A DNA stretch of 64,000 nt from an uncultured virus (IMG/VR IMGVR_UViG_3300028886_000081) (Duplodnaviria > Heunggongvirae > Uroviricota > Caudoviricetes). Location: the IMG/VR virus record IMGVR_UViG_3300028886_000081, one strand, 5' to 3'. The position numbers and the translations under genes are program-made. How positions within the stretch are numbered: position 1 is the first letter of the stretch; every line of letters starts with the position of its first letter. Shown one piece after another: positions 729 through 40,188 of this stretch. The notes under the pieces were generated by a model that did not search any database, was not told the DNA's origin, and saw only the letters and a program-made list of their open reading frames with translations.

Positions 729-752
729 AAAGAATTAAGATTTTTTTCTAAC

Positions 753-1172: not shown

Positions 1173-1194
1173 ATAAACTTCCGGTAATTGTTAA

Positions 1195-1611: not shown

Positions 1612-1624
1612 AAAAAAACTGATT

Positions 1625-2158: not shown

Positions 2159-2181
2159 AAAATTTCTTTTTGTTTTAATTT

Positions 2182-3012: not shown

Positions 3013-3029
3013 AAAAATGGTTTTATTCG

Positions 3030-3920: not shown

Positions 3921-3926
3921 GGCAGT

Positions 3927-4220
3927 TTATTTTTTATCTTTTTTGAAATATCTTACATTGAACTTTTTCTTTGTTTTCCGATATTCTGTTAATTCATCCA
4001 CGGAAACCGATAATTCTGTACATTTATTTTCAATTGACCTCAATCTGTCAAGTAATGCAGAATTTAGCTTGTAGTTGTTCTCCTGAGAAACATAATAAGA
4101 TTCATATGCCAACCCTAATATGACTGATAAGGACAACCATGCCAAAACAGTAAAAGATTCAATTGAAATAAAAGGTAATGTTATAAGAAGTGCAATAAGC
4201 AAAAATACTAATACTCGCAT
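3927..4220 (-). CDS. Hypothetical membrane protein
   Basis: Two hydrophobic N-terminal segments. Confidence 0.7.
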   Translation of the reverse strand: MRVLVFLLIALLITLPFISIESFTVLAWLSLSVILGLAYESYYVSQENNYKLNSALLDRLRSIENKCTELSVSVDELTEYRKTKKKFNVRYFKKDKK

Positions 4221-4224
4221 ATTT

Positions 4225-4605
4225 TTAAATAAATTGACTTTTATAGGAATTAATTCTTCTTCCGATAAGTTTATTTAAACGGATTCTCTCCTCTTCTAAA
4301 AAATTAGGATGTTCCTCAAAGAATTTCTCTCTTGTGTCCTTATATTCGCATATAACAGTTTTTGGGGTATTCTTCTCGATTATTTTCTGCAACTCCTTGA
4401 AAATCAAACCCTGATATACATAACCCTCTTCCTTTGTGTATTGTTCTAAGGAATCATTTACGGTAAACTGCTCGCGGATATTATATTTACGTGGAAAAAC
4501 TTCAGGGTCGAAATCCCATCTGTCCTTCAATATAAGGACAACCTGTTCTCCAAGTCCCTTCTCAATATATTGACTGAGAAGTCTAATTTTCTTTGTATTT
4601 GTCAT
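4225..4605 (-). CDS. Hypothetical protein
   Basis: 126 aa ORF. Confidence 0.7.
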   Translation of the reverse strand: MTNTKKIRLLSQYIEKGLGEQVVLILKDRWDFDPEVFPRKYNIREQFTVNDSLEQYTKEEGYVYQGLIFKELQKIIEKNTPKTVICEYKDTREKFFEEHPNFLEEERIRLNKLIGRRINSYKSQFI

Positions 4606-4764
4606 CTTTTATTTATATACCTTAATTAGTTCTTGTTGAGTCTGTTGTTGAAACAAACATTGAATGTGTTTTGTCGATAACGACATTTCCGATATCAATT
4701 ATCTTTGAGAAATTAGTCCAAAGAAGATATATCAGAATAAATGCTAAAAATAGTTTAAAAAGTT

Positions 4765-4959
4765 TCATTTTTCCTCCTCCTTTTTATATTCCTTTAACAT
4801 ATTTTCAGATGGATGATAAACTTCGATATCAGAATAGCATCCCTGACAGAAGTAAGTACTGATAAGTCGGTCATCTTCCTCAGGCATATCACCTTCTATT
4901 TCAGATAACATAAAATCCGACTGCCAAATAAGTTCTCCGTTGCAAATAGGGCATTTCAT
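4765..4959 (-). CDS. Small zinc-ribbon protein
   Basis: CPIC..CQGC. Confidence 0.7.
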   Translation of the reverse strand: MKCPICNGELIWQSDFMLSEIEGDMPEEDDRLISTYFCQGCYSDIEVYHPSENMLKEYKKEEEK

Positions 4960-4965
4960 TTTTTT

Positions 4966-5358
4966 TTACTTTGTTAAAAAATTAATAAATTCAATAGGCA
5001 GTGATATATTCTCAATATCCAAGGCTTCCCTGAAAAGAGGGGCTATTTCATTTGGCTCAAATCCGGCGATACCACAACCTATTAATGTCACGAGGAAATG
5101 ATATTCAGTATGTTCCTTTGCAAACTCAATAAAATCATCCACGTATGGCTTAATTGTGTCAACCCCACCTTGCATCGTAGGAATAGCATAACATCTGCCG
5201 GTCAAACCTACGCCAACTCCCCACTCAGCACCGAATTTCTTCCATGCAGTATAAGCAGCACCACCGCCGTGAAACCCATCCAAATTACTTCCGAATACAA
5301 ATATTTCGTTATCTTTTAATTCAGTAACTAATGTTGGTGTAATTCTGTTCTTTTCCAT
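4966..5358 (-). CDS. Macro-like phage protein (A1S_2505-type)
   Basis: EIFVFGSNLDGFHGGGAA..FGA..YAIPTM..VTLIGCGIAG; start moved to the ATG downstream of the promoter. Confidence 0.8.
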   Translation of the reverse strand: MEKNRITPTLVTELKDNEIFVFGSNLDGFHGGGAAYTAWKKFGAEWGVGVGLTGRCYAIPTMQGGVDTIKPYVDDFIEFAKEHTEYHFLVTLIGCGIAGFEPNEIAPLFREALDIENISLPIEFINFLTK

Positions 5359-5585
5359 AAGTTTCTTTTTCTTTTGTTTCTGCAAATATACGACAATTTT
5401 CAGTACTGTCGAAATTTACATGCTGAAAAAATGTTAAAGCATGCTATATTTATTTGTTATTTATCTGAAATGGGAGTACTTGAAGTCATATTGTTTGTTT
5501 ACCATGGGTATATATTAATACAGTATATACTAATCAGATTGTATTCCAAACGGGATAAAGGCATATATCTGAGTTATCAGCATTA

Positions 5586-5876
5586 TTAGCTGTTAACCTC
5601 GATAATTATATCTGCAAAGTCTGCAAGCTGTTCCAAACTTAGATTAGATAAATAATCGACTTCTCCGTTTCCGTTGTCAATTGACAAAGAATCATCTTCA
5701 GAAAAATAGTCAATAAAGTTTATTTTATGCGGATAACCGTTAATTGTCAGACCACCACAATCAAGGCTGAAAACCTTGTTATCAGATGTAAAACCGTTTG
5801 TTCTTACTATATCCTTAATAGCTGTGATAATTTCCAAACGGATGTCAAATAAACGTTCAGTAAATAATTTTTCCAT
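5586..5876 (-). CDS. Hypothetical protein
   Basis: 96 aa ORF. Confidence 0.7.
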   Translation of the reverse strand: MEKLFTERLFDIRLEIITAIKDIVRTNGFTSDNKVFSLDCGGLTINGYPHKINFIDYFSEDDSLSIDNGNGEVDYLSNLSLEQLADFADIIIEVNS

Positions 5877-5895
5877 AAAATTTATGTTTTATAAA

Positions 5896-6741
5896 TTAAT
5901 AGTTCAACGCCTCCTGTTCAGTCATGAAGAAGTGAATACCGGATGAGCACTCATGCCAACGGCACTCATCAAAGGAATCGGGGTAAACCATTTCTCCAAC
6001 TTTGTAAACACAAGGTTTTTTGAAAGTGTTGGTTATTTCCTCAATAGTTTCACCTGAGTCAATATCCTTTATTTCAAGCACTTTAGCCTTACTGCAACGA
6101 CATTTATTTGAAGTAGCTGAACTGCGTTTCGCATCTTCTGGTATTTCAAGTTTAACCATGAAACTTCTCTGACACTTATATTCCTCTGTCCCGTATATCT
6201 TTTTATACACTACGAAACGACCTTTCTCAGGACAAGTCATAGAGAAATCCGGCATAATAGTATTATCAAAGCATGCTCTGTCAAATGAACAGTATTCTAT
6301 ATTTGCGCCACGTAAATAAGAATCTGTTAAATTAGCACTACATAAATTACAATAACGTAAATCAGCACAACCAAGGTCAGCACCAGTAAGATTAGAACAA
6401 GATATGTTAGCACTACTAAGGTTAGTACCGAGTAAATTTGCTCCATGTAAATCAGCATGGGTAATATCTACGCGGGATAAGTCGGCACGGGTTAAGTCAG
6501 CACCGGATATATTTACGCTGTTAAGATTCGCCCAGTGTAAATGAGCACCACTTAAATCAGCACAACTAAGGTCGGCACTGTATAAGTCCACACCGCGTAA
6601 ATAAGCACAATGTAAATCTGCTTCATGTAAACTGATACCTTGCCTTACTGCTTCCTCTACCGTTTCTTTGATTGTGTTATTCTCCTTATCTGACTCAAAG
6701 ATAACCTCATCGGTTTTCCGTTTTTTAATCTGAATTAACAT
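5896..6741 (-). CDS. Pentapeptide repeat protein with DUF5758-like domain
   Basis: Paralog of 2182..3012. Confidence 0.9.
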   Translation of the reverse strand: MLIQIKKRKTDEVIFESDKENNTIKETVEEAVRQGISLHEADLHCAYLRGVDLYSADLSCADLSGAHLHWANLNSVNISGADLTRADLSRVDITHADLHGANLLGTNLSSANISCSNLTGADLGCADLRYCNLCSANLTDSYLRGANIEYCSFDRACFDNTIMPDFSMTCPEKGRFVVYKKIYGTEEYKCQRSFMVKLEIPEDAKRSSATSNKCRCSKAKVLEIKDIDSGETIEEITNTFKKPCVYKVGEMVYPDSFDECRWHECSSGIHFFMTEQEALNY

Positions 6742-6760
6742 AAAAAAACAGTTTTATTCA

Positions 6761-7735
6761 TTAAAGACGTACACCCCTGACAGCCTGACCGTCAAAACGA
6801 CTGTCATAGCCAATTAAACAACCATATCTGTTCAGACCTAAGCTTCGAGCATAACATCCATCCGACGTTCCCGTGGATGAAGTCCAAAAGTAACCATATC
6901 TGTTGTAAGCGAAAACACTATATGAACCACAGATACCTGAAACCGGAAATATAATATAATTACCGTTAATCTTAGAAGTAAGTTTCATTACATTGTGACC
7001 TGTATCTTCATAATCCTCTATCCACTCCCATGTGGTATTATCCATCAGTTCCTGACACTCTTCTTCTGTCGGCATTCTCCAACCTTTACCCATATTCACG
7101 GTTGCTGCATCATCCTCAGGGTCTAACACTGTTTTACCGTCAGCCTTGTTGTATTTGGATATTTTTTTTATGTCACCGAACTTGTAATCTTCCCATGTAA
7201 ATGCCTTACCACTGCTTGCATTAGGATAACCGTTTATTTCACCCCAAGCGAAATACAGTCCGAAGTCACCTTCCTTGAATGCTCCGACATCGGTTTTACA
7301 CCATTTCAATCCTGAAGGTAAACCTAAGTCCACATACTCGTATCCGGGTTTATATTCATCTGATAGTTCACCGTTTTCGTTAACAATACCCGATGATTTT
7401 AGGAACTGTGTTGCTGATTCCTTATTTTTGGTTACACATTCAGCAGTATGCTTAATAGCTGACTTATTATTTTGTTCTTCAGCATACTTTACAACATTAT
7501 AAGGTACACTATCTTTATTGAGTTTACTGATATAGTCCAAATACCATTCACCCTTTTTAATATCCTGCTCCTCACTGTTGTTTTCTTTTTCTCCCTTTCG
7601 GTAGTTGTATTTGTAGTGGTTAAGTACACACCAAATATATACACCTGTTTCACCGAATATATCAAGCATTTCCTCAATACATTCCTTCCTGCCTTCCTTA
7701 CTGTAGTGTGAAGGATGATTTACGTTTTCTGACAT
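6761..7735 (-). CDS. DUF3310-like domain fused to VDLGLPSG domain
   Basis: N-term VNHPSHY..ECIEEM..NHYKY..DIKKGEWY; C-term paralog of 3030..3920. Confidence 0.8.
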   Translation of the reverse strand: MSENVNHPSHYSKEGRKECIEEMLDIFGETGVYIWCVLNHYKYNYRKGEKENNSEEQDIKKGEWYLDYISKLNKDSVPYNVVKYAEEQNNKSAIKHTAECVTKNKESATQFLKSSGIVNENGELSDEYKPGYEYVDLGLPSGLKWCKTDVGAFKEGDFGLYFAWGEINGYPNASSGKAFTWEDYKFGDIKKISKYNKADGKTVLDPEDDAATVNMGKGWRMPTEEECQELMDNTTWEWIEDYEDTGHNVMKLTSKINGNYIIFPVSGICGSYSVFAYNRYGYFWTSSTGTSDGCYARSLGLNRYGCLIGYDSRFDGQAVRGVRL

Positions 7736-7805
7736 GATGCTATTATTATTTTGATATTATGTTGCAAAGATATGACAAATAAATGAATCAGACAATAAAT
7801 GTGTG

Positions 7806-8516
7806 TTAAACTTTGTTATCTCCCTTTAGTTTCTTTAAATCTTCGTATAATCCATTGAGCCGTTTTGAAACTTCCTGTTCAACCACGCTATCGCCTAACT
7901 TTACGTTCGCAATCCAATTCAGATAGTGCATCTGTTCATTAGTCGGCTTCCATGTGTATTTTGTTTTGAGGGATTTGAGCCATGCGGAAAGTTCAATTTT
8001 TACTTCCATGGACTCTTCTTTAGATTCGACTAAATCAATAAGCATGGAAATATTTTCTTTATCCTCTTCACTCCAAGCAGAGTTCTGTTCAATTTTCTTG
8101 TTTTTTTCCTCAACATCAATAGCAGATAATGAACCGTCAACCATAATCTCACGTATCTTCTCTAAAGGACTGCCTTCCTTATCTTCATATTGTGATAATA
8201 CGGTTGCTATCTTAAAAAGAGTTTCACCATAAACTTCCTGAACATCAGTTTCAGTTTTCTCTCCCTGACTTTCAAGCCATGCAATCCATCTATCACGTTT
8301 AAACGGAGATAAAATAATACTGTCCTCAGATTCTTTTAGTTCCTGTAGTATTTCTTTCCTAACTCTCTCGTATTCTGACTCTTTGAGTTGTGGGAAAACA
8401 TGTTCAAGTTCTTCTCTTGAACAGGAGCTACCTGAACCTAATAGCATCTCTATTTTTTTAACGGCTATATCATAGGCTTTTGCCTTTTCTTCAATACTAA
8501 GTTTTTTCATAAACAT
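7806..8516 (-). CDS. Modular family protein (EEKAKAYD / FPQLKESE / WSEED / WKPTNEQ)
   Basis: Motifs shared with 12358, 57533, 62421. Confidence 0.8.
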   Translation of the reverse strand: MFMKKLSIEEKAKAYDIAVKKIEMLLGSGSSCSREELEHVFPQLKESEYERVRKEILQELKESEDSIILSPFKRDRWIAWLESQGEKTETDVQEVYGETLFKIATVLSQYEDKEGSPLEKIREIMVDGSLSAIDVEEKNKKIEQNSAWSEEDKENISMLIDLVESKEESMEVKIELSAWLKSLKTKYTWKPTNEQMHYLNWIANVKLGDSVVEQEVSKRLNGLYEDLKKLKGDNKV

Positions 8517-8752
8517 AAAAAATGATATTTGTTAAGTTCATTTATTATCTTCTCATCTTTAGAATTTTCCCTAATCAGGAAAAGCAGTACATTATACAGT
8601 TTATCATCATCTGAATCACATATAAATTCAGAAATAATTACGCCTACTTCTTCATTTTCCAAAAGATGGACAGCAGTATTAATTGTTTTGCCGATTCCTT
8701 TTATAGGAAACTTCTCTCTGCATCTTCGTTTAGAACCTTCAGTTATTTTCAT
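8507..8752 (-). CDS. Hypothetical protein
   Basis: 81 aa ORF overlapping neighbours. Confidence 0.6.
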   Translation of the reverse strand: MKITEGSKRRCREKFPIKGIGKTINTAVHLLENEEVGVIISEFICDSDDDKLYNVLLFLIRENSKDEKIINELNKYHFLCL

Positions 8753-9111
8753 ATATGTGCAACCCTTTACAATCCAAGGCTAAATTCTTTTCAATCAGCC
8801 CAATGAAGTCGAAATGATGGGCAAGAAGCCAATCAAATGTCTCAAAAGAACTTACTAATACGCCATCCACAGTTACTAAATCGCTAAGAACAATGTATTT
8901 CTTCCTTAGTCATGCTTGACATTGGCCGGAGATATGGTTTTATAGTTTCTACCCAATATGGTAAATGGGGATATTTTCTGCTATATACATCCTCGTTTAA
9001 AACATAATGAAGTTCTTGTAATTCATCTTCAGATTCATCCTTAAACTTCACTCCGTAAGGTAATGCCATGCAGAGGTATTTCAAAAGTAGTTCTTTATTT
9101 TCCTGTGTCAT
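8739..9111 (-). pseudogene. Frameshifted KPYLRPMSSM-family gene
   Basis: After MTKEE the family C-terminus (FDWLLAHHFDFIGLIEKNLAL) continues in another frame. Confidence 0.7.
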
Positions 9112-21490: not shown

Positions 21491-22863
21491 GCAAGGAAGC
21501 CCACATGCTTTAGCTGTGGGAGGAATTGCTTAGTGCAAATATACATCTATTTTTATAATTAAATGAATTTTTTATGTTATTTTTTTGTTAAATATTGATA
21601 CTTTTTAAAATTAATAGTATATTTATGTATATACACAAGTGAAACGCAAATGGGTATTTGTACTTACATAGTCAAACTGAAAACAACAGAAGAAAACAAC
21701 AACTTCTGGAAAAGCAGACTGCAAAACGCAGCATCTGCACATGACTTGTGCATACAAATCATCAAACTAAACAATGTTAAACTCGGACTTAAAGAAGTAC
21801 ACGACGCAGTATATGAAACGTTAAGAATTAACTTCCCTGACTTACCGGCACAAGCCGTAATCAAAATCTATAAAAGCGTCATGTCCGAACTACGTTCAAT
21901 TATTTCGAATAAACACGAAGATGCAAAAGCACCGGTACGAAAAGGACTTGCCCTTGTGTTGGACAAGAGACTGTACAGTAATCTAAGTATTAACGGTATC
22001 AGTCTGTCAGATGCAAATCACGGCAAACGTACACATTACGACTTCGAGGTTTATGACAAACTAAAGGAAATGTTCTCCAAATACATACCATCCGACCCGA
22101 CATTGTTTATGAGAAGGGGCAGTCTATATCTTGCCATACCGTTTAACGTGGAGGACAAACCCGTAACAAATGACCGTTGTGTAGGTGTTGACCTTGGTGT
22201 AAGAAGGCTGTTCGTTACTTCTGACGGTATCGCATTCCGTGATAAGAAATACCTTGGAAACAGGCGAAAAGTCAGGTATCTTAAACGCAGTCTCAAATCA
22301 AAGGGTACTAAATCGGCATATAGGCATTTACGCAAGTTAAGGCGTAAGGAACGTAACATGTCAAAGGATATGCAGAACCGTGCGGTTAATGCACTGATTA
22401 AGTCAACAAATGCCGGTACGTTAGTCCTTGAAGATTTGAAAAAAATAAAGAATAACACATCGAAATTCGCAAACGGGGCTAAACGGAAGAAGCATAACAA
22501 TATGTTAAGTCAGGTTCCATTTGCGGAGTTCAAAGAACGTCTGACTCATAAGGCACACCTTTGCGGAATGAAGGTGAAAACAGTTAATCCGGCAAACACA
22601 AGTAAAACTGATAGCAGGACAGGAGAGAAGAACGGTGTACGTAAGGGTTGCCGTTATTACTGCAAGGATAAGGTTATACTTGATGCAGACTGGAACGCAG
22701 CAGTCAATATAGCTAAAAAAAGCAAACTCCCATGCTCGAATGAAGTTCCGAAAGACGGAACACTGTCGTTCTTGTGTGGCAGGCCCTTGCCAGTGGGCCA
22801 TACGTATGTAAACCCATCCTAGATGGTATTACAAGCCCACTCCTTTATGGGTGGGTAACTGAC
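21491..22863 (+). mobile_element. Non-autonomous IS200/IS605-family (IS1341-like) element
   Basis: Subterminal hairpins AAGCCCACATGCTTTAGCTGTGGG (left) and AAGCCCACTCCTTTATGGGTGGG (right, ending TGAC); tnpB only; ends approximate. Confidence 0.8.
21650..22822 (+). CDS. tnpB: RNA-guided endonuclease TnpB family protein
   Basis: RuvC motifs VGVDLG, LVLEDL, DADWNAAVNI. Confidence 0.92.
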   Translation: MGICTYIVKLKTTEENNNFWKSRLQNAASAHDLCIQIIKLNNVKLGLKEVHDAVYETLRINFPDLPAQAVIKIYKSVMSELRSIISNKHEDAKAPVRKGLALVLDKRLYSNLSINGISLSDANHGKRTHYDFEVYDKLKEMFSKYIPSDPTLFMRRGSLYLAIPFNVEDKPVTNDRCVGVDLGVRRLFVTSDGIAFRDKKYLGNRRKVRYLKRSLKSKGTKSAYRHLRKLRRKERNMSKDMQNRAVNALIKSTNAGTLVLEDLKKIKNNTSKFANGAKRKKHNNMLSQVPFAEFKERLTHKAHLCGMKVKTVNPANTSKTDSRTGEKNGVRKGCRYYCKDKVILDADWNAAVNIAKKSKLPCSNEVPKDGTLSFLCGRPLPVGHTYVNPS

Positions 22864-27899: not shown

Positions 27900-29590
27900 C
27901 CGCCATCAATCCAACCCTAATCTAAGACCATTTCTTGATAATACCAATGGACTTCTTGAACATATGGGCGAATCTCTCTGATTCGCTCTTTTTTTATCTT
28001 CAGACACTCCATAACAGAGCCGATTTACTGCTCTAACTAATATACAACGTAACTTGCTGATTATCAGATAGTTACATAAAATTTTGATACCATCCCCCAT
28101 CCGGACAAACCAGTACGGTCAGGAAAGGCGGTAAATAGGACACAGGTAAGCTGAAATAAGTATTTGAGAACCATTAATCGTAAATATTTATGGGACAGGA
28201 CTGTAAATGCGTAATTTTCAAGCACATACGAAACAGAGACAGAAATCCTAAAGAAAAACGGCGTGTAGTGAGGGAAGGAAATTTGAAACTAATTGAAATG
28301 AAATTGTGTAGGAAGATTAAAATGAAATGTATGTGTCGTAAAGGAAATGTATAGTAGGTTTAAAAGAAAATAGATTAACATATATTGAATGATAAATGTA
28401 TAGGATTGTAAATGAAATAGTATAGGATAGATTTTGTATTGAAACAGTACTGAATTTGTATAGTAAGGTTAAAAGAAAATATGTAGGAAGAATAATATAT
28501 AGATAGTAGATAGATATAGTATAGATAACAGGTAGTTTTATGCTGAAGTCATATAGTAGGTTTAAAAGAAAATTTTATATTGAAAACTGATTGAAAATTC
28601 TGTGTCCTCCATCAATTTCCGGAAAAAAATTATTAAAAATTTAAAATTAGATAATTAGTTACTATATACTATATATACCGTACTCATTTGAGTACATCTA
28701 TACCACATTTTTAGTATTAACTTATTATAATTCAATTATTTAGTATTTAATTTTTAGTTTCCCTCAATTATCCCCCTTGTATTATATTATATGACATTCT
28801 GCACATTATATTGTAATGATATTATGTGCAATATTATATATAACATTATTAAGTATTTAATATTACATCTCTGTTATATATCATATTATATACCGGTTAT
28901 ATTTCATATTATATATTATGTTATGTAGAATGTTATATATTCTGATAACGGTTATTATTATAATGTGTATTATTATTCTGTGTATATTACTGTTATGATT
29001 CTATTTGTATTTCTGCTTTAGTTTTTAAGCAGATAGTATATATCATATTTTTAAGTTTATGATATTATAGGAATTAAGTATTATATAATTAGTAATTCAT
29101 TATATAGTATAAAATGTCAAAAATTAAAGTTTTGTATTTAGAAAAATTGAAAAAACGTCAAAAAAACGCTGTTTTAAGGCTGCTATAGACATTTTACTTA
29201 TAATGTTGATTTTCAATCAGTTAAAAAATTGGTGTTTTAAAAAATGCTATAGAGAAAAAATTTTTTATCACCTACTGGTTTGTGTTTGATATATTTTTCA
29301 TTTTATGAATGTCAAAAATTAAAGTTTTGGGTGATAGGGAGATATAAATCTGTATAAAAAACAGTGTTACATTTAGTATTTGAATAGGATATTTCAATTA
29401 GTATAGTTCTTCTTGTTGATGTAGGGTATTAGATATTTTAATTAGTATTATTATTGATATGTTGGTATGTATTATTAAGTACTAAAAAATTAGTAGTCCA
29501 TTGAATTAACATAAATTAACAAAAAAAGTACAGTCATGATGGAGACTATACTTTAGAGTTTCACTTCTACCTTTGTTTTATCATTTTGAT
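27900..29590. other. Long AT-rich non-coding region with strand-composition switch
   Basis: No credible ORFs; purine-rich to ~28600 then T-rich; short direct repeats. Confidence 0.7.
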
Positions 29591-29657
29591 AGTGCAAAGG
29601 TACGAAGATATTTTGGATTATGCAATAGTTTGTATGTTAAATGATGTTAATAGGATG

Positions 29658-30266
29658 TTATTTTATTATTTCGACATATTTGGATGACTGTTCTGTTACG
29701 TAGGGATTATGTTCAACGACTTCGATATTAAGTACTTTATGTTTCTTTTGGAACCATCTTAGCAGGAAGAATTTCTTCGGTGGGTTGACGGTTTCTTTCT
29801 TAGTGAATGCTATGATATGTTTATCCGATTTGAAGTACGGTGTTGTTATGATGGTTGAGGGGTAGATGAGTTTAAGGTTCATGGTGTACCATTGGTTTTT
29901 GTCCTGTAGTGTGGTATCGATGTTCAGTGTAGGGTTTCTGAACAGTGTATCGGTTACTGTAATGGTGTCTGTCCTTGTGAATGAGGACTTTACGGACTGT
30001 AGTGCCTTGAGGTTTTTGTCCTTTATCTTGAGTTGTGTTCTTGTGTCATTCAGTGCCACAAGAACGGAGTCATTGAAATACTTGAGTTGGTTTACTGACA
30101 GCTGTAATGCTGTGTTTTTGTTTTTATTCTCTGAGAGTTCCTCTGCATAGGCTTTTACGTTGGCTTCTGCTGTCTTCCACTTATTGCTTGTTGTATTAAG
30201 CTGATACGTGAGTATTGCTATTACTCCTATAAGCAATGCAATTGTAAGAAATAGATACTTCTTCAT
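29658..30266 (-). CDS. Membrane-anchored coiled-coil protein, possible spanin-like lysis accessory
   Basis: N-terminal TM, coiled coil, PPKKFFLLRWF; function inferred. Confidence 0.55.
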   Translation of the reverse strand: MKKYLFLTIALLIGVIAILTYQLNTTSNKWKTAEANVKAYAEELSENKNKNTALQLSVNQLKYFNDSVLVALNDTRTQLKIKDKNLKALQSVKSSFTRTDTITVTDTLFRNPTLNIDTTLQDKNQWYTMNLKLIYPSTIITTPYFKSDKHIIAFTKKETVNPPKKFFLLRWFQKKHKVLNIEVVEHNPYVTEQSSKYVEIIK

Positions 30267-31486: not shown

Positions 31487-31666
31487 TCACAGTTGGAAAA
31501 ATCTGAATTCAGATGAGAGTTTAAAACCGGTTTCAACTGAAGCACGTATAGCATCACCGGCCTTGTCATACTTCATGGCATTTGAAATGTCTTTTGTTAA
31601 CGTTTCACCGTCTTCGGATAAAAACCCTTTCAAGTCTTCTGAATAGATTACGAATACATTGTTCAT
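31487..31666 (-). CDS. Small hypothetical protein
   Basis: Manual translation MNNVFVIYSEDLKGFL.. 59 aa. Confidence 0.55.
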   Translation of the reverse strand: MNNVFVIYSEDLKGFLSEDGETLTKDISNAMKYDKAGDAIRASVETGFKLSSEFRFFQL

Positions 31667-31951
31667 GTCGGGATAGTCATTTTTCCTGCTTATTTCGCCT
31701 TCTGTCGGCTTAAAGCCTTTCAGGTGGACAGTTGTTCAACTGAGGTATAAACAAGCATTTAGAGAGCCGTTTAAACGTGTTTACTTCACGCGGGTATTGT
31801 CTGTTATGAATGTAGAGTTCAGTTGAAAAAACGGGAATACGCGAATATTCCCGTTACAGAAGTGTAGAAGAAGGAAACCCGTTTCACGTATGGAGTCGAA
31901 AATATGTAGTATATGAAAGTAGTGGAGTTTCGGGTTTCCTTAGACGGTTAA

Positions 31952-32233
31952 TCAGAGTCCCAGTTCTTTCTTGAGGTTTTCTGCAATTCTCAGACCATCC
32001 TCATACTGTTCTATCAGTCCGGCAGTATCGACGATTTTCTGGATGTCGAGCGGGTATTCTGATTTCAGTTCTTCGAGTTTCGCCTTAGTATCTTGGACTG
32101 ATTTCTTTGTACTTAAGATGGCGGCTTGCAAGTCTAGGCTTGCGGATTCTACATAATAGTCCACCTTGTTCTTTTCCTCGTTCTCCTCTGAGAGAATTTC
32201 TCTGTTCTTGTAGTTGATTTTCATTGTTTTCAT
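31952..32233 (-). CDS. Coiled-coil hypothetical protein
   Basis: ORF; start MKTMKINY inferred. Confidence 0.75.
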   Translation of the reverse strand: MKTMKINYKNREILSEENEEKNKVDYYVESASLDLQAAILSTKKSVQDTKAKLEELKSEYPLDIQKIVDTAGLIEQYEDGLRIAENLKKELGL

Positions 32234-32486
32234 CGTTTTTAAAAGTTTCACGTTTGTCTATCGTAGTGTTATAAGATTCATGTCTGTCTATCGTAGTGGA
32301 ATCACATACACAGTAATTACGGTCTAAATACAGTACTGAACCGGTTTGACCTACATCAGTTATTGTAAGAGCATCTTTGTAATCTTTGAAAGCTTCTCCT
32401 ATGGTCATAGGTTGCTCTGAAGCAATTGCGTACAGTGCGAATTTTCTTGCTAATTCATAATCTACAGTTAACTTATCATCATTCAT
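32085..32486 (-). CDS. Hypothetical protein, 3' end probably rearranged
   Basis: Long overlap with next gene; internal duplication TTIDRHE/TTIDKRE. Confidence 0.5.
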   Translation of the reverse strand: MNDDKLTVDYELARKFALYAIASEQPMTIGEAFKDYKDALTITDVGQTGSVLYLDRNYCVCDSTTIDRHESYNTTIDKRETFKNDENNENQLQEQRNSLRGERGKEQGGLLCRIRKPRLASRHLKYKEISPRY

Positions 32487-32529
32487 AAAAAATTTAATTA
32501 ATCTAAAAAAACTTACGTTACGCTTAGTC

Positions 32530-32606
32530 TGGTAGGGAGTGTGGGACTTGAACCCACAACCTCATGCGTATAAGACATCTGCGCTAACCAATTGCGCCAA
32601 CTCCCT
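32530..32606 (-). tRNA. tRNA-Ile, anticodon UAU
   Basis: Cloverleaf: acceptor AGGGAGT/ACTCCCT, D stem GCGC, loop CT-TAT-AC, T arm GTGGG-TTCAAGT-CCCAC, discriminator A, encoded CCA. Confidence 0.92.
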
Positions 32607-33075
32607 GAATATGCCTTAATGCGTGTGACTTCTTAAGGACTTTTGAGACTGTCATTACCTTGTTGAAATTCTTGCAAGTGTCACTCCATTGAATAGGCTG
32701 TTAACAACCTTCAACTCTGAGATTCTAATTCCAACTTGGTATCTCCCTTTCAGTCTCTACACGTTTATAAAACTCTCGCTATCCACTCTTATTTAATACA
32801 GACGCTATCTGCTTTATTTGGGAGCTTCTCCTAGGTCTTAAAGTTCTATTTTCGCTCGGTGCTGTCCTTTTGTCAGATTATACTAAGGGATTCTAACCCT
32901 CAAACCGCCTTTACCACAAGCATCATGACCATGCTTTCGACTTTGCATTACTGCTTTCAGATAGCTTACACTTAGGTCAATTTACTATCATTGTACAATC
33001 GACTAAAAGGACTTATACCGAATTTGGGTAGATTCTACTATGGGATTTCTCGCCATAGCACACACTTTTTTTCTT
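32607..33075 (-). ncRNA. Group I intron-like structured RNA without evident exons
   Basis: Manually paired P2, P3, P4, P5, P6, P7, P8, P9 in group I order (see findings). Confidence 0.75.
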
Positions 33076-33083
33076 TCACGTTG

Positions 33084-33116
33084 CAAAGGTACGACAATTA
33101 TTCCGTTCGTGCAAAT
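33084..33116 (-). promoter_or_regulatory. Bacteroidota promoter driving ncRNA-tRNA transcript
   Basis: TTTG..TACCTTTG on minus strand. Confidence 0.8.
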
Positions 33117-33134
33117 TTCAGATGTTAAAAAAAT

Positions 33135-33422
33135 CTAAAGAATGCAATCTTCATCTTCCTCGTCATCTTCGTCCTCGTCAGAACCATTTTCGTATTCATC
33201 CCAGGAACCGTAGCCAAGGTGTTCTGCTATCATGTCACGTTCGAACCACAGAAAATCATTTATTTCTGTTTCAGTCCAACCTTCTCCTGATTGGTCTGAG
33301 ACTTCTTCTATTAAATCTTCAACTGAATCACAGTCGCCCTTCTCAATCAGTACGTCCAGTGTATCTTTGCCACCTGACCATGCTTCGAAACTCTCAAGGC
33401 TTGTCTCTACGTAATATCTCAT
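33135..33422 (-). CDS. Highly acidic small protein
   Basis: FEAWSGGKDT..TEINDFLWFE; D/E-rich tail. Confidence 0.8.
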   Translation of the reverse strand: MRYYVETSLESFEAWSGGKDTLDVLIEKGDCDSVEDLIEEVSDQSGEGWTETEINDFLWFERDMIAEHLGYGSWDEYENGSDEDEDDEEDEDCIL

Positions 33423-33457
33423 ATCTGAAATGAATTTACAGGTTAAACATAAACTGA

Positions 33458-33874
33458 TTAGAATAAGTCCTCGTCCTCATCGAAATCTTCGACAAACTTC
33501 CTAATCTCATCGATTCTATTTGAATCGAATTCAATTTCTTCTTCGCACCAGTTTTCTTCGATAAACGGAACTTTAGACAGAATTGCGTTGCATCCTTCGA
33601 TTACCATACATACCATATAGGCTTCAGGTTCACTGAACGGATTATGTGTATTTTCACCGAAGTTCATCTTTTCCCAGTCAAAATACTCACCTGCTTCCCA
33701 ATTCCATTCACGAAGATAGTCAAGTGCTTTTTCACGGCTATATGTACATGTGCCGTTAGCATTTATACCTTCTGTGATTGTAGTGGGGAAATCACAAGCG
33801 TAGAAACTCATATCTTCATAATTGTCGATATTCTCCAAAATGAAATCCTTACAATACTTTACGAAACCTTCCAT
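33458..33874 (-). CDS. Highly acidic protein (candidate DNA mimic)
   Basis: 138 aa D/E-rich ORF with own promoter. Confidence 0.75.
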   Translation of the reverse strand: MEGFVKYCKDFILENIDNYEDMSFYACDFPTTITEGINANGTCTYSREKALDYLREWNWEAGEYFDWEKMNFGENTHNPFSEPEAYMVCMVIEGCNAILSKVPFIEENWCEEEIEFDSNRIDEIRKFVEDFDEDEDLF

Positions 33875-33990
33875 AGAATTTGTTTTTTGAGTTGTTGTTT
33901 TGTTTTTGTTTCACGGTGCAAAGGTACGATGATTTTTTTACCCGTGCAACTTTTTCACGTTAATCGTTCTTAATGAAATGCTAAAGAATG

Positions 33991-34629
33991 TTAACAGTAG
34001 CCCAATGCTTCTTCCTCTGTCATAAAGAAGTGAATACCGGCTGAACATTCATTCCACCTGCATTCGTCAAAGGAGTCTGGGTAGACATATTCTCCTACCT
34101 TGTAAACACAAGATACCATATTAGTGTTAGTTACCTCATTAACCGTTTCACCTGATACCATGTCTCTTATCTCAAGCACCTTCGCCTTACTGCAACGGCA
34201 CTTATTCGAAGTAGAAGAACTACGTTTCGCGTCCTCCGGTATCTCAAGTTTAACTATGAAATACCTATTACGACCATATTCCTCTGTCCAGTATATTTTC
34301 TTCCAACCGATGAAACTACCGGTCTCAGGGCAAGTCATAGGTAAATCCGGCATGATAGTATTATTCAAAAAAGCTTTATCAAGATATACATCATGTAAGT
34401 CTGCGCCGGTTAAGTCAGAACCGGTTAAATCTGCACAGTATAAATAAGCTTCACGCAAGTCAGCACCACGCAAGTCTGCACCACGTAAATTAGCATAACT
34501 TAAACTTGCACCACGTAAACTTATACCTCGTTTCACTGCTTCCTCGACAGTATCTTTGATGGTATTATCCTCTTTGTTTAACTCGAAGATAACATCATAT
34601 GTTTCCAAATTTTTAATCTGAATTAGCAT
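33991..34629 (-). CDS. Pentapeptide repeat protein with DUF5758-like domain
   Basis: Family motifs. Confidence 0.9.
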   Translation of the reverse strand: MLIQIKNLETYDVIFELNKEDNTIKDTVEEAVKRGISLRGASLSYANLRGADLRGADLREAYLYCADLTGSDLTGADLHDVYLDKAFLNNTIMPDLPMTCPETGSFIGWKKIYWTEEYGRNRYFIVKLEIPEDAKRSSSTSNKCRCSKAKVLEIRDMVSGETVNEVTNTNMVSCVYKVGEYVYPDSFDECRWNECSAGIHFFMTEEEALGYC

Positions 34630-37294: not shown

Positions 37295-37927
37295 TTAATA
37301 ATTCAGTGCTTCTTCTTCACTCATAAAGAAGTGTATGCCATTACTACACTCATGCCATCTACACTCGTCAAAGGAATCAGGGTAAACATACTCTCCTACT
37401 TTGTAAATGCACGTATGCATATTTTTATTTGTTACCTTGACAATTGTTTTGTCTGTCCTTATGTTTCTTATCTCAAGTACCTTAGCTTTCGAGCAACGGC
37501 ACTTATTTGAAAAACCCGAACTTCTCTTAGCATCCTCCGGTATCTCAAGTTTTACAATAAAATCATCGGCAAAATATTCCCTCGTCCATAAAATCTTTTT
37601 ATAGCCTATAAAACTACCGGTCTCAGGACAATGCATGGGAAAATCGATTTTAGTGGTGTCATCAAAATCAGCACTATAAATACGAATCTTTTCTAAATTT
37701 GCACCACGCAAGTCTGTACCGGTAAGATTTGCATCATCTAAAATGGCTTCACGCAAGTCAGCACCACGTAAGTCCGCATCACGTAAATCTGAATAATATA
37801 AATCAGCAAAACGTAAACTGACACCTTGCCTTACCGCTTCCTCGACAGTATCTTTGATGCTATTATACTCCTTGTCCAACTCGAAGATAACCTCATCTGT
37901 TTTCCAATTTAAAATCTTTATCAGCAT
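37295..37927 (-). CDS. Pentapeptide repeat protein with DUF5758-like domain
   Basis: Family motifs; start MLIKILNW by paralogy. Confidence 0.9.
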   Translation of the reverse strand: MLIKILNWKTDEVIFELDKEYNSIKDTVEEAVRQGVSLRFADLYYSDLRDADLRGADLREAILDDANLTGTDLRGANLEKIRIYSADFDDTTKIDFPMHCPETGSFIGYKKILWTREYFADDFIVKLEIPEDAKRSSGFSNKCRCSKAKVLEIRNIRTDKTIVKVTNKNMHTCIYKVGEYVYPDSFDECRWHECSNGIHFFMSEEEALNY

Positions 37928-38106
37928 AACTATTTTCTGTTTCTGTTTGACACTGCAAAGGTACGACAATAATTTCATTCGTACAACTTTCTGACGTTAA
38001 TCGTTCTTAATGAAGTGCTAAAGAATGTTAACCGTACTCATTTGAGTACATACTAATAAAAAAAACACCATGCTATACAGATAACATGGTGTAGTTTTTA
38101 ATTCAA

Positions 38107-39552: not shown

Positions 39553-40188
39553 TTAATAGTCTAAGGCTTCTTTCTCTGTCATGAAGAAGTGAATACCACT
39601 TGAACATTCATTCCAACGGCATTCGTCAAAAGCATTCGAATAGACATACTCTCCTACTTCATAAACGCACATAAACATATTTTTATTTGTTATACTTTCA
39701 ATTGTTTCTCCTGACATCATATCCCTTATCTCAAGTACTTTAGCCTTTGAACAACGGCACTTATTCGAAGTGGATGAACTGCGTTTCGCATCCTCAGGTA
39801 TCTCAAGTTTAACTATGAAACTTCTCTTAAATCCATATTCCGCTGTCCATGAAATCTTTTTATATCCTATGAAACTGCCTTTCTCCGGGCAAGCCATGGG
39901 GAAATCCGGTATGATGGTATTATTCAAAATGGCTTTATCAAAGAAACAATTTTTTATATTTGCGCCGGTTAAGTCAGCACCACTAAGGTCAGAACCTTCA
40001 AAATATGCACGATATAAATTAGCACCACGCAAGTCCGCATCATGTAAATCCTCATCACATAAACTAGCAAAACTTAAATCTACCCTTTGTCTTACTGCCT
40101 CTTCTACAGTGTCCTTGATAGTGTTATTTTCTTTGTCCAACCCGAAGATAACTTCATCGCTTCTCCAATCCCAAATTTTAATTAACAT
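39553..40188 (-). CDS. Pentapeptide repeat protein with DUF5758-like domain
   Basis: Family motifs. Confidence 0.9.
   Translation of the reverse strand: MLIKIWDWRSDEVIFGLDKENNTIKDTVEEAVRQRVDLSFASLCDEDLHDADLRGANLYRAYFEGSDLSGADLTGANIKNCFFDKAILNNTIIPDFPMACPEKGSFIGYKKISWTAEYGFKRSFIVKLEIPEDAKRSSSTSNKCRCSKAKVLEIRDMMSGETIESITNKNMFMCVYEVGEYVYSNAFDECRWNECSSGIHFFMTEKEALDY

What the first reader, a model, noticed from the sequence alone, without database searches (positions are those of the whole stretch)
32607..33091. Exon-less group I intron-like RNA forming the 5' leader of a phage tRNA-Ile
Seen on the minus strand, starting ~20 nt after a TACCTTTG promoter, are helices in group I order: P2 TGCTATGG/CCATAGTA (33060-33036); P3 TCT(A)CCC (33032-26) with GGGAGA (32747-42); P4 TTCGGT (33022-17) with ACCGAG (32860-55); long P5 GTCCTTTTAGTCGATTGTAC with GTATAATCTGACAAAAGGAC; P6 ATAGAACTT/GAGTTTTAT; J6/7 TGTA; P7 GAGACTG (32757-51) with CAGTCTC (32651-45); P8 TACC-AA-GTTGGAATT/AATTTCAAC-AA-GGTA; P9 CCTTAA/TTAAGG. 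The tRNA starts 7 nt later. Established: group I introns need P1 and exons, a bulged nucleotide in P7 at the G-binding site, and a J8/7 of about 6 nt. Here P7 can pair perfectly, J8/7 is only ATGA, no gene is interrupted, and the 5' GTGTG is complementary to CACAC in the P9 loop. Inference: a repurposed group I scaffold, such as a tRNA-leader processing or trans-acting ribozyme, or a non-catalytic decoy.
Basis: partly seen in the sequence, partly recalled or inferred. Interest (0 to 1): 0.9.

Follow-up and report, generated by a model that had tools for sequence, protein, structure and literature searches.

The report
Exon-less, disarmed group I intron RNA
A large cattle-rumen phage makes an abundant RNA of about 460 bases that is a self-splicing (group I) intron stripped of its exons and of key catalytic parts, and similar disarmed copies recur in other huge phages, so the intron fold may have been reused as a stand-alone RNA.

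Summary
Window 33065-32607 (minus strand) folds into group I helices P2-P8 in the stated order, just upstream of tRNA-Ile(UAU).

It is homologous to a family of 417-574-nt group I introns in tRNA anticodon loops of huge rumen/gut phages. Earlier notes of this scan describe that family on other DNA, but not an exon-less form. The family fold is backed by covariation: 96.5% of cells paired, 20 of 69 pairs changed on both sides.

This copy is not an intron.
- It has no exons.
- It starts about 20 nt after a TACCTTTG box.
- J8/7 is 4 nt instead of 6.
- The P7 bulge is paired.
- The P9.0-P9-omegaG domain is replaced by a hairpin 7 nt before the tRNA.

An ortholog (L183) keeps the same layout with only pair-preserving changes. 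Metatranscriptome contigs from four studies cover exactly this RNA at 3 to over 20 times the depth of its flanks where the flanks are covered at all.

Five further exon-less lineages exist: L042, L218, L142/L145, L081 and L187. All differ from the introns in J8/7 or P7. Most have their own promoter-like box, a terminator, or a helix joining the 5' and 3' ends.

Best reading (about 0.5): a catalytically disarmed scaffold RNA of unknown target. Main rival (about 0.33): a surviving intron remnant. Rfam's group I model misses the whole family.

The parts
33112..33115 (-). TTTG, candidate -33 box, 20 nt upstream of the -7 box
   Evidence: Read. The Bacteroidetes promoter consensus (TTTG / TAnnTTTG) is recalled, not tested here.
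33084..33091 (-). TACCTTTG, candidate -7 promoter box
   Evidence: Conserved in ortholog L183 (intergenic and promoter stretch 97.1% identical). Near-identical in L218 (TTCGTACCTTTGCAA). TAnnTTTG alone is near chance frequency in the window (50 and 62 per strand). The RNA contig of run X5 reaches 33068 and not beyond.
33059..33065 (-). GUGUGUG, remnant of the internal guide sequence; no 5' exon strand of P1 upstream
   Evidence: Same position as GUGUG in introns of tRNA(CAU) genes (5' exon ...GACUCAU|). Can pair with 32627-32621.
33036..33060 (-). P2 hairpin (UGCUAUGG / CCAUAGUA, 9-nt loop)
   Evidence: In family alignment A1, 3 of its 8 pairs change on both sides and 100% of cells are paired.
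33017..33032 (-). P3 5' strand (A33029 bulged), J3/4 AAA, P4 5' strand
   Evidence: Pairs with 32747-32742 (P3) and 32860-32855 (P4)..
32864..33012 (-). P5 long helix (33012-32993 with 32883-32864) and its extension. Lacks the ACACUAAnCAAUAAUGUGU element kept by the other 24 rows of A1
   Evidence: This P4-P6 middle part is not alignable with ortholog L183 (67.9% with 79 gap columns).
32855..32860 (-). P4 3' strand ACCGAG
32767..32849 (-). P6 (32849-32841 with 32775-32767) and its extension
   Evidence: At the P6 base in A1, 3 of 4 pairs change on both sides.
32742..32766 (-). J6/7, P7 5' strand GAGACUG (32757-32751), J7/3 AAA, P3 3' strand GGGAGA
   Evidence: Most conserved block of the family.
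32656..32741 (-). P8 (UACC..GUUGGAAUU / AAUUUCAAC..GGUA) with inner hairpins
   Evidence: Against L183 there is one compensatory A-U to G-C change, three one-sided pair-keeping changes and no pair broken.
32645..32655 (-). J8/7 AUGA (4 nt; the introns have 6) and P7 3' strand CAGUCUC (an extra U pairs the normally bulged A)
   Evidence: All 18 tRNA-intron rows in which the element was found have a 6-nt J8/7 ending GAGA and CAG(U/C)CC.
32614..32638 (-). Replacement 3' hairpin CCUUAA / UUAAGG with 13-nt loop. Loop CACACGC (32627-32621) is complementary to the guide remnant
   Evidence: It stands in place of the family's P9.0-P9-omegaG domain, whose signature has 0 matches in the window with up to 3 mismatches.
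32607..32613 (-). 7-nt linker CAUAUUC to the tRNA
   Evidence: The RNA contig of run X7 stops at 32613, which is only a weak hint of an end.
32530..32606 (-). tRNA-Ile(UAU), complete
   Evidence: ARAGORN. Rfam tRNA 65 bits. 100% identical in L183.

Best explanation
The stretch encodes a non-splicing, catalytically disarmed derivative of a mobile group I intron. The intron family normally sits in anticodon loops of tRNA genes of huge rumen/gut phages.

Shown:
- It is homologous to those introns from the guide sequence through P8.
- It has no exons, no P1 5' strand and no P9.0-P9-omegaG domain.
- Its J8/7 is 2 nt short and the P7 bulge is paired.
- It is present as RNA far above its flanks.
- A related phage keeps the same truncated form at the same locus.

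Inferred:
- It is transcribed from the TACCTTTG box together with tRNA-Ile(UAU) and released when RNase P cuts the tRNA 5' end, leaving a stable RNA of about 460 nt.
- Its guide remnant is tied up in cis by the CACAC loop of the 3' hairpin, acting as a pseudo-substrate with C-G where the cleavable U-G would be.
- The molecule is therefore a closed, harmless group I scaffold.
- Selection acts on the fold and not on catalysis. The RNA most likely works by being bound, as a decoy or sponge for a factor that recognises intron-bearing pre-tRNA or tRNA anticodon loops, or as a structural RNA.

The molecular target is unknown.
For: Homology:
- 22 of 116 loci fetched by a 14-mer are blastn homologs.
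- 11 of these are introns that ARAGORN or manual reading places in tRNA anticodon loops.

Family fold: 96.5% of 1648 cells paired against 38-46% when partners are slid, 20 of 69 pairs changed on both sides, and 0 of 500 shuffles reach it.

Not an intron: ARAGORN with introns of 10-900 nt finds no split tRNA in window 32001-33600. The 3' domain signature is absent.

Core lesions are specific:
- Against intron-consensus columns, the seven exon-less rows differ at 28 of 70 cells in J8/7-P7' but at 43 of 854 scaffold cells.
- Every exon-less copy differs there.

Ortholog L183: same promoter, guide, truncation, hairpin and tRNA. The P7-P8-hairpin block has 10 differences: 1 compensatory pair (two of the differences), 3 one-sided pair-keeping, 2 pair-creating, 3 unpaired and 0 pair-breaking.

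RNA:
- X3: 444-nt contig, depth 163, covers 32624-33027 with 0 differences; flanks 2-7.
- X5: 368-nt contig, depth 40, covers 32701-33068; flanks 1-2.
- X7: 433-nt contig, depth 6.7, covers 32613-33046; flanks 0 except one contig of depth 18.9 in a single bin about 800 nt upstream.
- X9: two contigs covering 32640-33006, 0 differences.

Recurrence:
- L042 is the only family copy in a complete 339-kb phage record. It has a TATCTTTG box and a terminator.
- L142 and L145 share only the RNA unit; their flanks are unrelated.
- L081 and L218 close their ends with helices of -24.8 and -21.8 kcal/mol, matched by 0 of 500 shuffles each.
- L218 has a remodelled, bulge-free but still paired P7.
- L042 against L218: 8 of 103 predicted pairs changed on both sides, and the only losses are gaps.
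Against: - No function is shown and no binding partner recurs next to the copies.
- The exon-less copies do not form one clade on 162 core columns (p-AU 0.0004). Their lesions differ and their 3' ends are heterogeneous. This also fits repeated breakage.
- L030 looks like a plainly broken gene: a tRNA-Ser(UGA) 5' exon, a truncated intron and a complete tRNA-Ser(UGA) right after it, the same layout as here.
- A lesion in the core may be the cause of death of each intron. That alone would enrich hits there.
- WIN and L183 are too close (93-100% outside the swapped part) for a strong selection test.
- Modules are exchanged between copies, so covariation seen in exon-less copies may have arisen inside working introns.
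- RNA evidence is from assembled contigs only. It gives no strand or ends, and a structured leader of a strongly transcribed tRNA would be abundant anyway.
- The guide-to-loop pairing in this copy is not significant alone (17% of shuffles).
Confidence: 0.5

Rival explanations
1. Neutral remnant. A split tRNA gene (CAU anticodon type), or an ectopic intron copy, was broken by deletions or recombination in a tRNA array. The intron body survives only because it now carries the promoter and forms the leader of tRNA-Ile(UAU). It is abundant because it is well folded, not because it is used.
For: - L030 shows an intermediate with a leftover 5' exon and a same-anticodon replacement tRNA.
- The exon-less copies are polyphyletic on core columns, with different lesions in each lineage.
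- This copy lost the whole 3' domain and the conserved P5 element that the other 24 rows keep.
- L042 differs from the intron consensus at only 5 of 169 conserved columns, so it could simply be young.
- The leader of L042 still resembles the end of a tRNA 5' exon as seen in L073.
Against: - Exons are gone while the scaffold is kept at about 95% of consensus columns.
- No pair-breaking change since the WIN/L183 split.
- New long 5'-3' closing helices in L081 and L218 and a re-paired P7 in L218 are constructive changes, not decay.
- L142 and L145 carry the same dead core into unrelated genome contexts.
- Phage genomes usually purge 0.5 kb of junk (general knowledge).
Confidence: 0.33
2. Still a ribozyme. 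The RNA uses its free guide sequence to cleave or trans-splice another RNA, for instance an anticodon loop with CAU or UAU, or it cuts itself near the 3' hairpin.
For: - The guide remnant sits at the very 5' end, as in engineered trans-acting group I ribozymes (recalled).
- The G-C pair at the G-binding position of P7, and J6/7, are retained in this copy.
- The X3 RNA contig is bounded by adapter sequence at 32624, inside the CACAC loop, and the X9 contig ends at G32640. Contig ends are weak evidence.
Against: - J8/7 is shortened by 2 nt, the bulged A is paired, and omegaG and P9.0 are absent.
- Other exon-less copies lose the G-binding pair itself: L042 has G.A, and L142 and L145 lack GA in the J6/7-P7 element.
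- The candidate cis target has C-G where a U-G wobble is needed.
- RNA contigs run through the proposed cleavage sites (X7 reaches 32613).
Confidence: 0.08
3. An ordinary intron whose exons were missed: a split or trans-spliced tRNA, or an intron in the flanking ORFs.
For: - All close relatives are ordinary tRNA introns.
- The upstream ORF matches only positions 10-84 of a 164-position PHROG profile.
Against: - No split tRNA is found with introns of 10-900 nt.
- The tRNA-Ile is complete by itself.
- There is no omegaG or 3' splice-site domain.
- Reading the upstream ORF through its TAG adds no profile match.
- The downstream ORF has no PHROG or Pfam match.
Confidence: 0.03

Closest known systems
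[quoted passage not shown]
   Same: The parent family found here sits in anticodon loops of tRNA-Leu(UAA), Arg(UCU), Met/Ile2(CAU) and others, with U at -1 paired to a G of the guide and G at omega. It has helices P1-P9.0 in the same order, a P3/P7 pseudoknot and a GNRA-capped hairpin in P9. The window copy keeps P2-P8 of that fold.
   Different: The window copy has no exons, no P1, no omegaG or P9.0-P9, a 4-nt J8/7 and no P7 bulge. The family carries large inserts in P5, P6, P8 and P9, and Rfam RF00028 does not see it. Likeness to the Azoarcus sequence itself is recalled, not tested.
'Enigmatic' introns in tRNA genes of Lak megaphages (Devoto et al., bioRxiv 10.1101/356790; passages read)
   Same: Huge gut phages of Bacteroidota hosts with intron-bearing tRNA genes and highly expressed intergenic regions.
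   Different: That paper does not class the introns as group I and describes no exon-less copies in the passages I read. Its supplementary tables were not seen. Kinship of this window's phage to Lak phages was not tested.
GIR1 / lariat-capping ribozyme of twin-ribozyme introns (PMC2219692, PMC4167309; search listing only)
   Same: An RNA derived from the group I fold that no longer splices and serves another purpose.
   Different: GIR1 is catalytic (branching), lies inside a eukaryotic rDNA intron, and caps a homing-endonuclease mRNA. No Rfam match to it at E up to 10.
GOLLD and ROOL large ornate RNAs of phages and prophages (recalled; both are in Rfam)
   Same: Large, highly structured, abundant phage-borne RNAs of unknown function, often next to tRNA genes.
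   Different: No sequence or structure match. Those RNAs are not group I derived.
Engineered trans-acting group I ribozymes (for example Azoarcus trans-splicing, PMC3895272; search listing only)
   Same: The transcript begins at the guide sequence, with no 5' exon.
   Different: Those keep an intact catalytic core. The natural copies here all carry lesions in J8/7 or P7.

Membership tests
Group I intron (self-splicing) | Core helices P3-P8 in canonical order with P3/P7 pseudoknot | tested here: met
   Present at the coordinates given. Homologous to 17 tRNA introns, and the pairs covary across 25 sequences.
Group I intron (self-splicing) | P1 with 5' splice site (U-G wobble) formed by 5' exon and guide sequence | tested here: not met
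   The guide remnant GUGUGUG is present, but nothing upstream can form P1. The promoter-like box lies 18 nt upstream. Relatives have ...CAU| or ...CUU| exons there.
Group I intron (self-splicing) | omegaG and 3' splice site, positioned by P9.0/P9 | tested here: not met
   The family's 3' domain signature has 0 matches in the window with up to 3 mismatches. The alignment shows the domain replaced by an unrelated hairpin.
Group I intron (self-splicing) | G-binding site in P7 with a bulged nucleotide, and J8/7 of family length | tested here: not met
   P7 is a perfect 7 bp because of an extra U. J8/7 is AUGA, against 6 nt ending GAGA in 18 of 18 intron rows in which the element was found. The effect on catalysis is inferred.
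Group I intron (self-splicing) | Interrupts a gene that is restored by excision | tested here: not met
   No split tRNA. The adjacent tRNA-Ile is complete. No ORF continuity.
Group I intron (self-splicing) | Match to Rfam RF00028 | tested here: inconclusive
   No match at E up to 10. Four bona fide introns of the same family (L094, L024, L169, L073) also give none, so the model is blind to this family.
Group I intron (self-splicing) | Self-splicing activity | not testable with these tools
   Needs in vitro transcription and a splicing assay.
Phage tRNA-intron family found here (P2 ..GGCGAGAAAUCC.., J6/7-P7 GUGUAGAGACUG) | Sequence homology over P2-P4 and J6/7-P8 | tested here: met
   blastn 83-91% over these blocks. 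Aligned in A1.
GOLLD / ROOL / GIR1 / other Rfam families | Covariance-model match | tested here: not met
   Only tRNA passes. The other 6 matches at E up to 10 are snoRNA, miRNA or plastid-UTR models at E of 1.9 or more.

The most novel reading that the evidence does not exclude
Huge rumen and gut phages maintain a class of stand-alone RNA genes made from group I introns. In these genes catalysis has been switched off by lesions in J8/7 and P7. The substrate-binding guide is locked by a built-in pseudo-substrate or a 5'-3' closing helix. The elaborate scaffold, with swappable peripheral modules that include tRNA-like T-loop hairpins, is kept by selection.

The RNA would act by binding. It could be a decoy for a host factor or defence that recognises intron-bearing pre-tRNAs or anticodon loops, or it could hold the anticodon loop of the co-transcribed tRNA. 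It would be the first natural example of a group I ribozyme fold domesticated as a non-catalytic RNA.
Probability: 0.45. Interest if true: 0.85.

Novelty: new variant of a known kind. Interest (0 to 1): 0.72.

Why it matters
Group I introns are textbook selfish ribozymes. The only well-known natural offshoot with another job is the lariat-capping ribozyme.

Here the same fold appears repeatedly as an independently transcribed, abundant RNA with no exons to splice. In every copy the changes cluster at the active site (J8/7 and P7). That makes an open question directly testable: can large ribozyme scaffolds be reused for non-catalytic roles in viruses?

It also gives a possible identity to some of the highly expressed 'intergenic' regions reported in huge phages.

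There is a practical point for annotation. The standard Rfam group I model misses the whole family, introns included, so split tRNA genes and these RNAs go unannotated in rumen and gut viromes.

In five full-text searches no listed title or abstract start described exon-less group I derivatives in phages; of the listed papers I read only three, in part.

Tried and rejected
- Exact 16-mers. GAGACTGAAAGGGAGA in IMG/VR gave 13 loci, all chance matches. TGACAGTCTCAAAAGT gave 6 loci, also chance.
- Loci around relatives of the flanking proteins. Three relatives of the upstream ORF (L014-L016) carry neither the RNA nor a tRNA. The downstream ORF has no relatives in IMG/VR.
- INPHARED phages, blastn 'distant': only the tRNA part matched one record.
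- No whole genome is held for the window.
- One search used a wrong gap length in a window pattern. One search, the last IMG/VR scan, used a pattern with one N too many and found nothing. Neither result means anything. The corrected pattern was used on genome contigs.
- One search used a structure string with P7 and P9 mis-registered. It was replaced.
- Rfam searches (and RF00028 over four phage records) found no family copy. The 42-bit sub-threshold hit in G001 is a different, smaller intron.
- One-clade test for exon-less copies: rejected. Recombination between copies makes the tree unreliable either way.
- Guide-to-loop duplexes of WIN, L183, L042, L142 and L145 are individually not better than 9-25% of shuffles.
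- The 16 differences in the X7 RNA contig all lie in 32965-33021 and would break distal P5. I treat this as a mosaic or chimeric contig and drew nothing from it.
- Parts of the laid stretch without RNA cover (the tRNA and most of the ORFs) are not evidence of silence.
- TAG=Q or TGA=W recoding to make the stretch coding: no support.
- Search of the Azoarcus cryo-EM paper for sequence motifs: none printed in the main text.
Full report
**1. What is in the sequence**

On the minus strand, an ORF ends at 33135. A TACCTTTG box lies at 33091-33084, with a TTTG 20 nt upstream of it. From 33065 to 32607 there is no credible ORF under table 11, TAG=Q or TGA=W. Reading the upstream ORF through its TAG adds nothing to its PHROG match.

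A complete tRNA-Ile(UAU) occupies 32606-32530 (ARAGORN; Rfam tRNA 65 bits).

The unconstrained MFE fold recovers P2, P4, P5, P6, P7 and P8. Its energy is -120.3 kcal/mol against -103.3 +/- 5.1 for 100 shuffles, z -3.34, with none as stable.

The context is an accessory region of a large phage. It holds five pentapeptide-repeat/DUF5758 paralogs, two DNA methyltransferases and a TnpB-like gene. No whole genome is held for the window.

**2. Rfam is silent, and that means nothing here**

The window gives only the tRNA at gathering thresholds. On 1.1 kb at E up to 10 there is no group I, GIR1, GOLLD or ROOL match.

The same holds for 20 homologous loci. At E up to 10 it also holds for four bona fide introns of the family, L094, L024, L169 and L073. 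RF00028 run over four whole phage records finds no family copy. The model is blind to this family, probably because of its large inserts.

**3. Relatives**

INPHARED has none. Of these, 22 are blastn homologs of the window RNA over P2-P5 and J6/7-P8, at 83-91% identity in those blocks.

With introns allowed, ARAGORN places 10 of the 22 inside tRNA anticodon loops, with introns of 417-574 nt. The isotype labels from those calls and from my manual reading include Leu-UAA, Arg-UCU and Met/Ile2-CAU. An eleventh, L073, is split on manual reading. Some ARAGORN isotype labels are wrong; for example L024 is called Pro but reads ...GACUCAU|.

A second pattern (guide GUGUG plus P2) gave 10 IMG/VR loci and 43 metagenome loci. 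About 18 of the 43 are GC-rich chance hits. Most of the rest are introns of tRNA(CAU) genes.

Earlier notes of this scan already describe this intron family on other DNA. They gave me the lead, and I re-derived the family independently.

**4. The family is group I by structure**

On a 25-sequence alignment (A1) I wrote P2, P3, P4, P5, a conserved P5 hairpin, the P6 base, P7 as a pseudoknot with its bulged A, P8, P9.0, P9 and a GUAA-capped hairpin.
- 96.5% of 1648 cells form standard pairs, against 38-46% when partners are slid by 1-3 columns.
- 20 of 69 pairs change on both sides, against at most 10 when slid.
- None of 500 shuffles reaches any of the five measures.

One search used a mis-registered string and is superseded. 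The introns have U at -1 opposite a G of the guide and end in G. From recall, the J3/4-P4 and J6/7-P7 sequences resemble IC3 tRNA introns such as that of Azoarcus. I could not test this against a reference sequence.

**5. This copy is not an intron**

No split tRNA is found with introns of 10-900 nt in window 32001-33600. Compared with the introns:
- (a) Nothing upstream of the guide GUGUGUG can form P1. The promoter-like box stands where the exon would be.
- (b) J8/7 is AUGA. All 18 intron rows where the element was found have 6 nt ending GAGA.
- (c) The P7 3' strand is CAGUCUC instead of CAG(U/C)CC. The extra U pairs the A that is bulged in the introns.
- (d) The whole 3' domain is absent (0 matches with up to 3 mismatches). 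That domain comprises P9.0 ACCAC/GUGGU, P9, the GUAA hairpin and omegaG. A hairpin whose loop holds CACACGC replaces it.
- (e) The conserved P5 hairpin kept by the other 24 rows is missing.

**6. An ortholog**

L163 is identical to the window over 2022 nt. L183 comes from a related phage and has the same flanking genes. Identity to the window by block:

| Block | Identity |
|---|---|
| Upstream ORF | 96.8% |
| Promoter region | 97.1% |
| Guide-P2-P3 | 39 of 39 |
| J6/7 to P7' | 92.6% |
| Hairpin and linker | 97.4% |
| tRNA | 100% |
| Downstream ORF | 86.2% |
| P4-P6 middle | 67.9%, 79 gap columns |

The P4-P6 middle is effectively a different module, of the ...CUAAAACG... type seen in other family members.

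The 10 differences in the P7-P8-hairpin block comprise one compensatory A-U to G-C pair (two of the differences), three one-sided pair-keeping changes, two that add pairs and three unpaired. None breaks a pair. The sample is small.

**7. It is an abundant RNA**

Nine RNA runs from bovine gut, from several studies, hold 0.19-0.38 of the sampled words. Contigs of four RNA runs from four studies were laid on window 31500-34100.

| Run | Contig(s) | Depth | Window cover | Flank depth |
|---|---|---|---|---|
| X3 | 444 nt, 0 differences | 163 | 32624-33027 | 2-7 |
| X5 | 368 nt | 40 | 32701-33068 | 1-2 |
| X7 | 433 nt | 6.7 | 32613-33046 | 0, except one bin about 800 nt upstream (33849-33935) at 9.9, from a contig of depth 18.9 |
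| X9 (size-fractionated) | 203 and 182 nt, 0 differences | 4-6 | 32640-33006 | 0 |

No contig deeper than 2.1 runs into the ORFs, and the one deeper piece over the tRNA (X5, depth 19.2, 32568-32603) comes from a contig that matches only there. Because flanks were laid too, DNA carry-over is an unlikely explanation.

Contigs cannot give the strand, true ends or level. The stops near 33068 and 32613 are only hints, though they fit a start after the TACCTTTG box and an end at the RNase P site of the tRNA.

The two most conserved blocks reach depths of 750-9035 from other family members. Their contigs skip 260-262 nt of the window. This family's RNAs are therefore very abundant in rumen RNA.

**8. 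Other exon-less copies**

- **L042.** It lies in a 339-kb record that IMG/VR classes as complete with terminal repeats, and it is the only family copy there. It has a TATCTTTG box, the guide GUGUGUG, no tRNA exons and the full 3' domain. The G-binding pair is changed (P7' CAGUAC). A terminator hairpin follows with loop UCACAC.
- **L142 and L145.** They lie in records of 184 and 124 kb, each the only copy there. GA is deleted from the J6/7-P7 element, J8/7 is 3-4 nt and P7' is CAGUCA. They end at the family's omegaG position, followed by a hairpin with loop UCACA. Their homology is confined to the RNA unit, and their flanks are unrelated by blastn and tblastx. L145 shares its P8 insert with a working intron, L169.
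- **L081.** It lies between two tRNA genes. J8/7 is AUGU, P7' is CAGUCA and there is no 3' domain. Its 5' leader and 3' tail pair at -24.8 kcal/mol, against -12.4 +/- 3.0 for shuffles, 0 of 500 as good.
- **L218.** It is on a goat-rumen MAG contig. Its promoter TTCGTACCTTTGCAA is nearly that of the window. P7 is rebuilt as a longer helix with no bulge. A 12-bp 5'-3' helix scores -21.8 against -11.1 +/- 2.6, 0 of 500 as good.
- **L187.** It has no tRNA exon upstream; a 12-bp T-loop minihelix stands there instead. Its contig ends before the 3' end. Its P7' insert also occurs in the real intron L127, so its core status is uncertain.
- **L030.** It is an apparent intermediate: a tRNA-Ser(UGA) 5' exon, an intron truncated after P8 with a bulge-free P7, then directly a complete tRNA-Ser(UGA).

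**9. Where the changes fall**

Take the columns that are the same in at least 16 of the 17 introns. The seven exon-less rows differ at 28 of 70 cells in J8/7-P7' but at 43 of 854 cells in the P2-P5, P5-P4', J6/7-P8 and P8' blocks.

Indels inflate the first figure. Counted as events, it is still roughly 2-3 events in about 13 nt, against 0-7 in 122 nt. The consensus was defined on the introns, so their own low counts follow by construction.

L042 and L218 share a leader and a P6 extension. Of 103 predicted pairs, 8 change on both sides and the only losses are gaps.

**10. How I weigh it**

Points for a kept, disarmed scaffold RNA:
- Exons are lost but the scaffold is retained.
- Lesions cluster in the catalytic centre in every lineage.
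- Some changes are constructive: new closing helices and a re-paired P7.
- The same dead unit occurs in unrelated genome contexts.
- It is the sole copy in a complete genome.
- Only pair-keeping change has occurred between orthologs.
- The RNA is abundant.

Points for a remnant:
- Exon-less copies are scattered among introns on a 162-column tree, and one clade is rejected (p-AU 0.0004). Recombination makes that tree unreliable in either direction.
- L030 looks like a plainly broken gene with the same layout.
- A core lesion may simply be what killed each intron.
- Module exchange could import covariation that evolved inside working introns.
- A folded leader of a tRNA transcript would be abundant anyway.
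- The guide-to-loop pairing recurs in WIN/L183, L042 and L142/L145, but each case is individually unremarkable, with 9-25% of shuffles as good.

I put a selected, non-catalytic role at about 0.5, a neutral remnant at about 0.33, residual ribozyme activity at about 0.08 and a missed ordinary intron at about 0.03. Whatever the function, the claim 'expressed, exon-less derivative of a group I tRNA intron with a damaged active site' is well supported (about 0.85).

**11. Literature**

Five full-text searches listed no paper whose title or abstract start describes exon-less or free-standing group I derivatives in phages.
- Williams 2020: I read part 1 of 2 of the text. [quoted passage not shown]
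- The Lak megaphage preprint: I read passages. It reports 'enigmatic introns' in phage tRNAs and highly expressed intergenic regions without classifying them. Its supplementary tables were not available to me.
- The Azoarcus cryo-EM paper: I saw two passages only.
- GIR1, trans-splicing and review papers were seen only as search listings.

Noticed in passing
window 28100-29658: A 1.56-kb ORF-free, very AT-rich stretch (GC 0.27 with strongly positive GC skew in the 28001-30000 bin). The motif AAAACTTTAATTTTTGACATT occurs twice, near 29325 and 29145. It could be an origin, a regulatory region, or another expressed non-coding region like those reported in Lak phages.
   Followed up: no
window 21650-22822 (+): A 390-aa TnpB-like ORF (Cas12f1-like TNB domain, OrfB_IS605; PHROG transposase). 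It lies on the opposite strand to its neighbours inside the phage accessory region.
   Followed up: no
window 2182-3012, 5896-6741, 33991-34629, 37295-37978, 39553-40188 (all -): Five paralogous proteins that each combine pentapeptide repeats with a C-terminal DUF5758 domain.
   Followed up: no
L081:334-480 (-): A tRNA directly after the exon-less RNA matches the Rfam tRNA model at 50 bits over 147 nt. It therefore carries an insert of about 74 nt, which ARAGORN places near the anticodon. A similar insert-bearing tRNA-like sequence follows L218.
   Followed up: no
L219:900-1824 (Paludibacteraceae MAG contig, 147 kb): A family member in which a LAGLIDADG-like ORF starts right after the J6/7-P7 element. 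This suggests that homing endonucleases mobilise the family. No tRNA exons are evident upstream.
   Followed up: partly
L106:89-530 (-): A family copy with an almost intact core (J8/7 AAGAGU, P7' CAGUCC, full 3' domain) whose flanks are not tRNA-like. The guide GAG could pair with ...CUU| upstream. It is possibly an active intron in a non-tRNA site.
   Followed up: partly
window 33027 and 32624 (run X3): The depth-163 RNA contig is bounded on both sides by Illumina adapter sequence, at C33027 in P3 and at A32624 inside the CACAC loop. This could mean recurrent fragment ends there, or an assembly quirk.
   Followed up: no
window 32739-32770 and 33030-33061: In rumen metatranscriptomes these two conserved blocks reach contig depths of 750-9035, from other members of the family. 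Those contigs skip 260-262 nt of the window. Intron-family RNAs are therefore among the abundant RNAs in those samples.
   Followed up: no
G001:C1:151626-151851 (locus L194): The 335-kb phage record that holds three family introns also has a different, small group I intron candidate (RF00028 42.1 bits, below the 50-bit cut-off).
   Followed up: no
window 32884-32905 (-): The P5 extension of the window RNA contains a hairpin GAGGGUUAGAAUCCCUUA. It resembles a tRNA T arm, in line with earlier notes of tRNA-like modules in this intron family.
   Followed up: no
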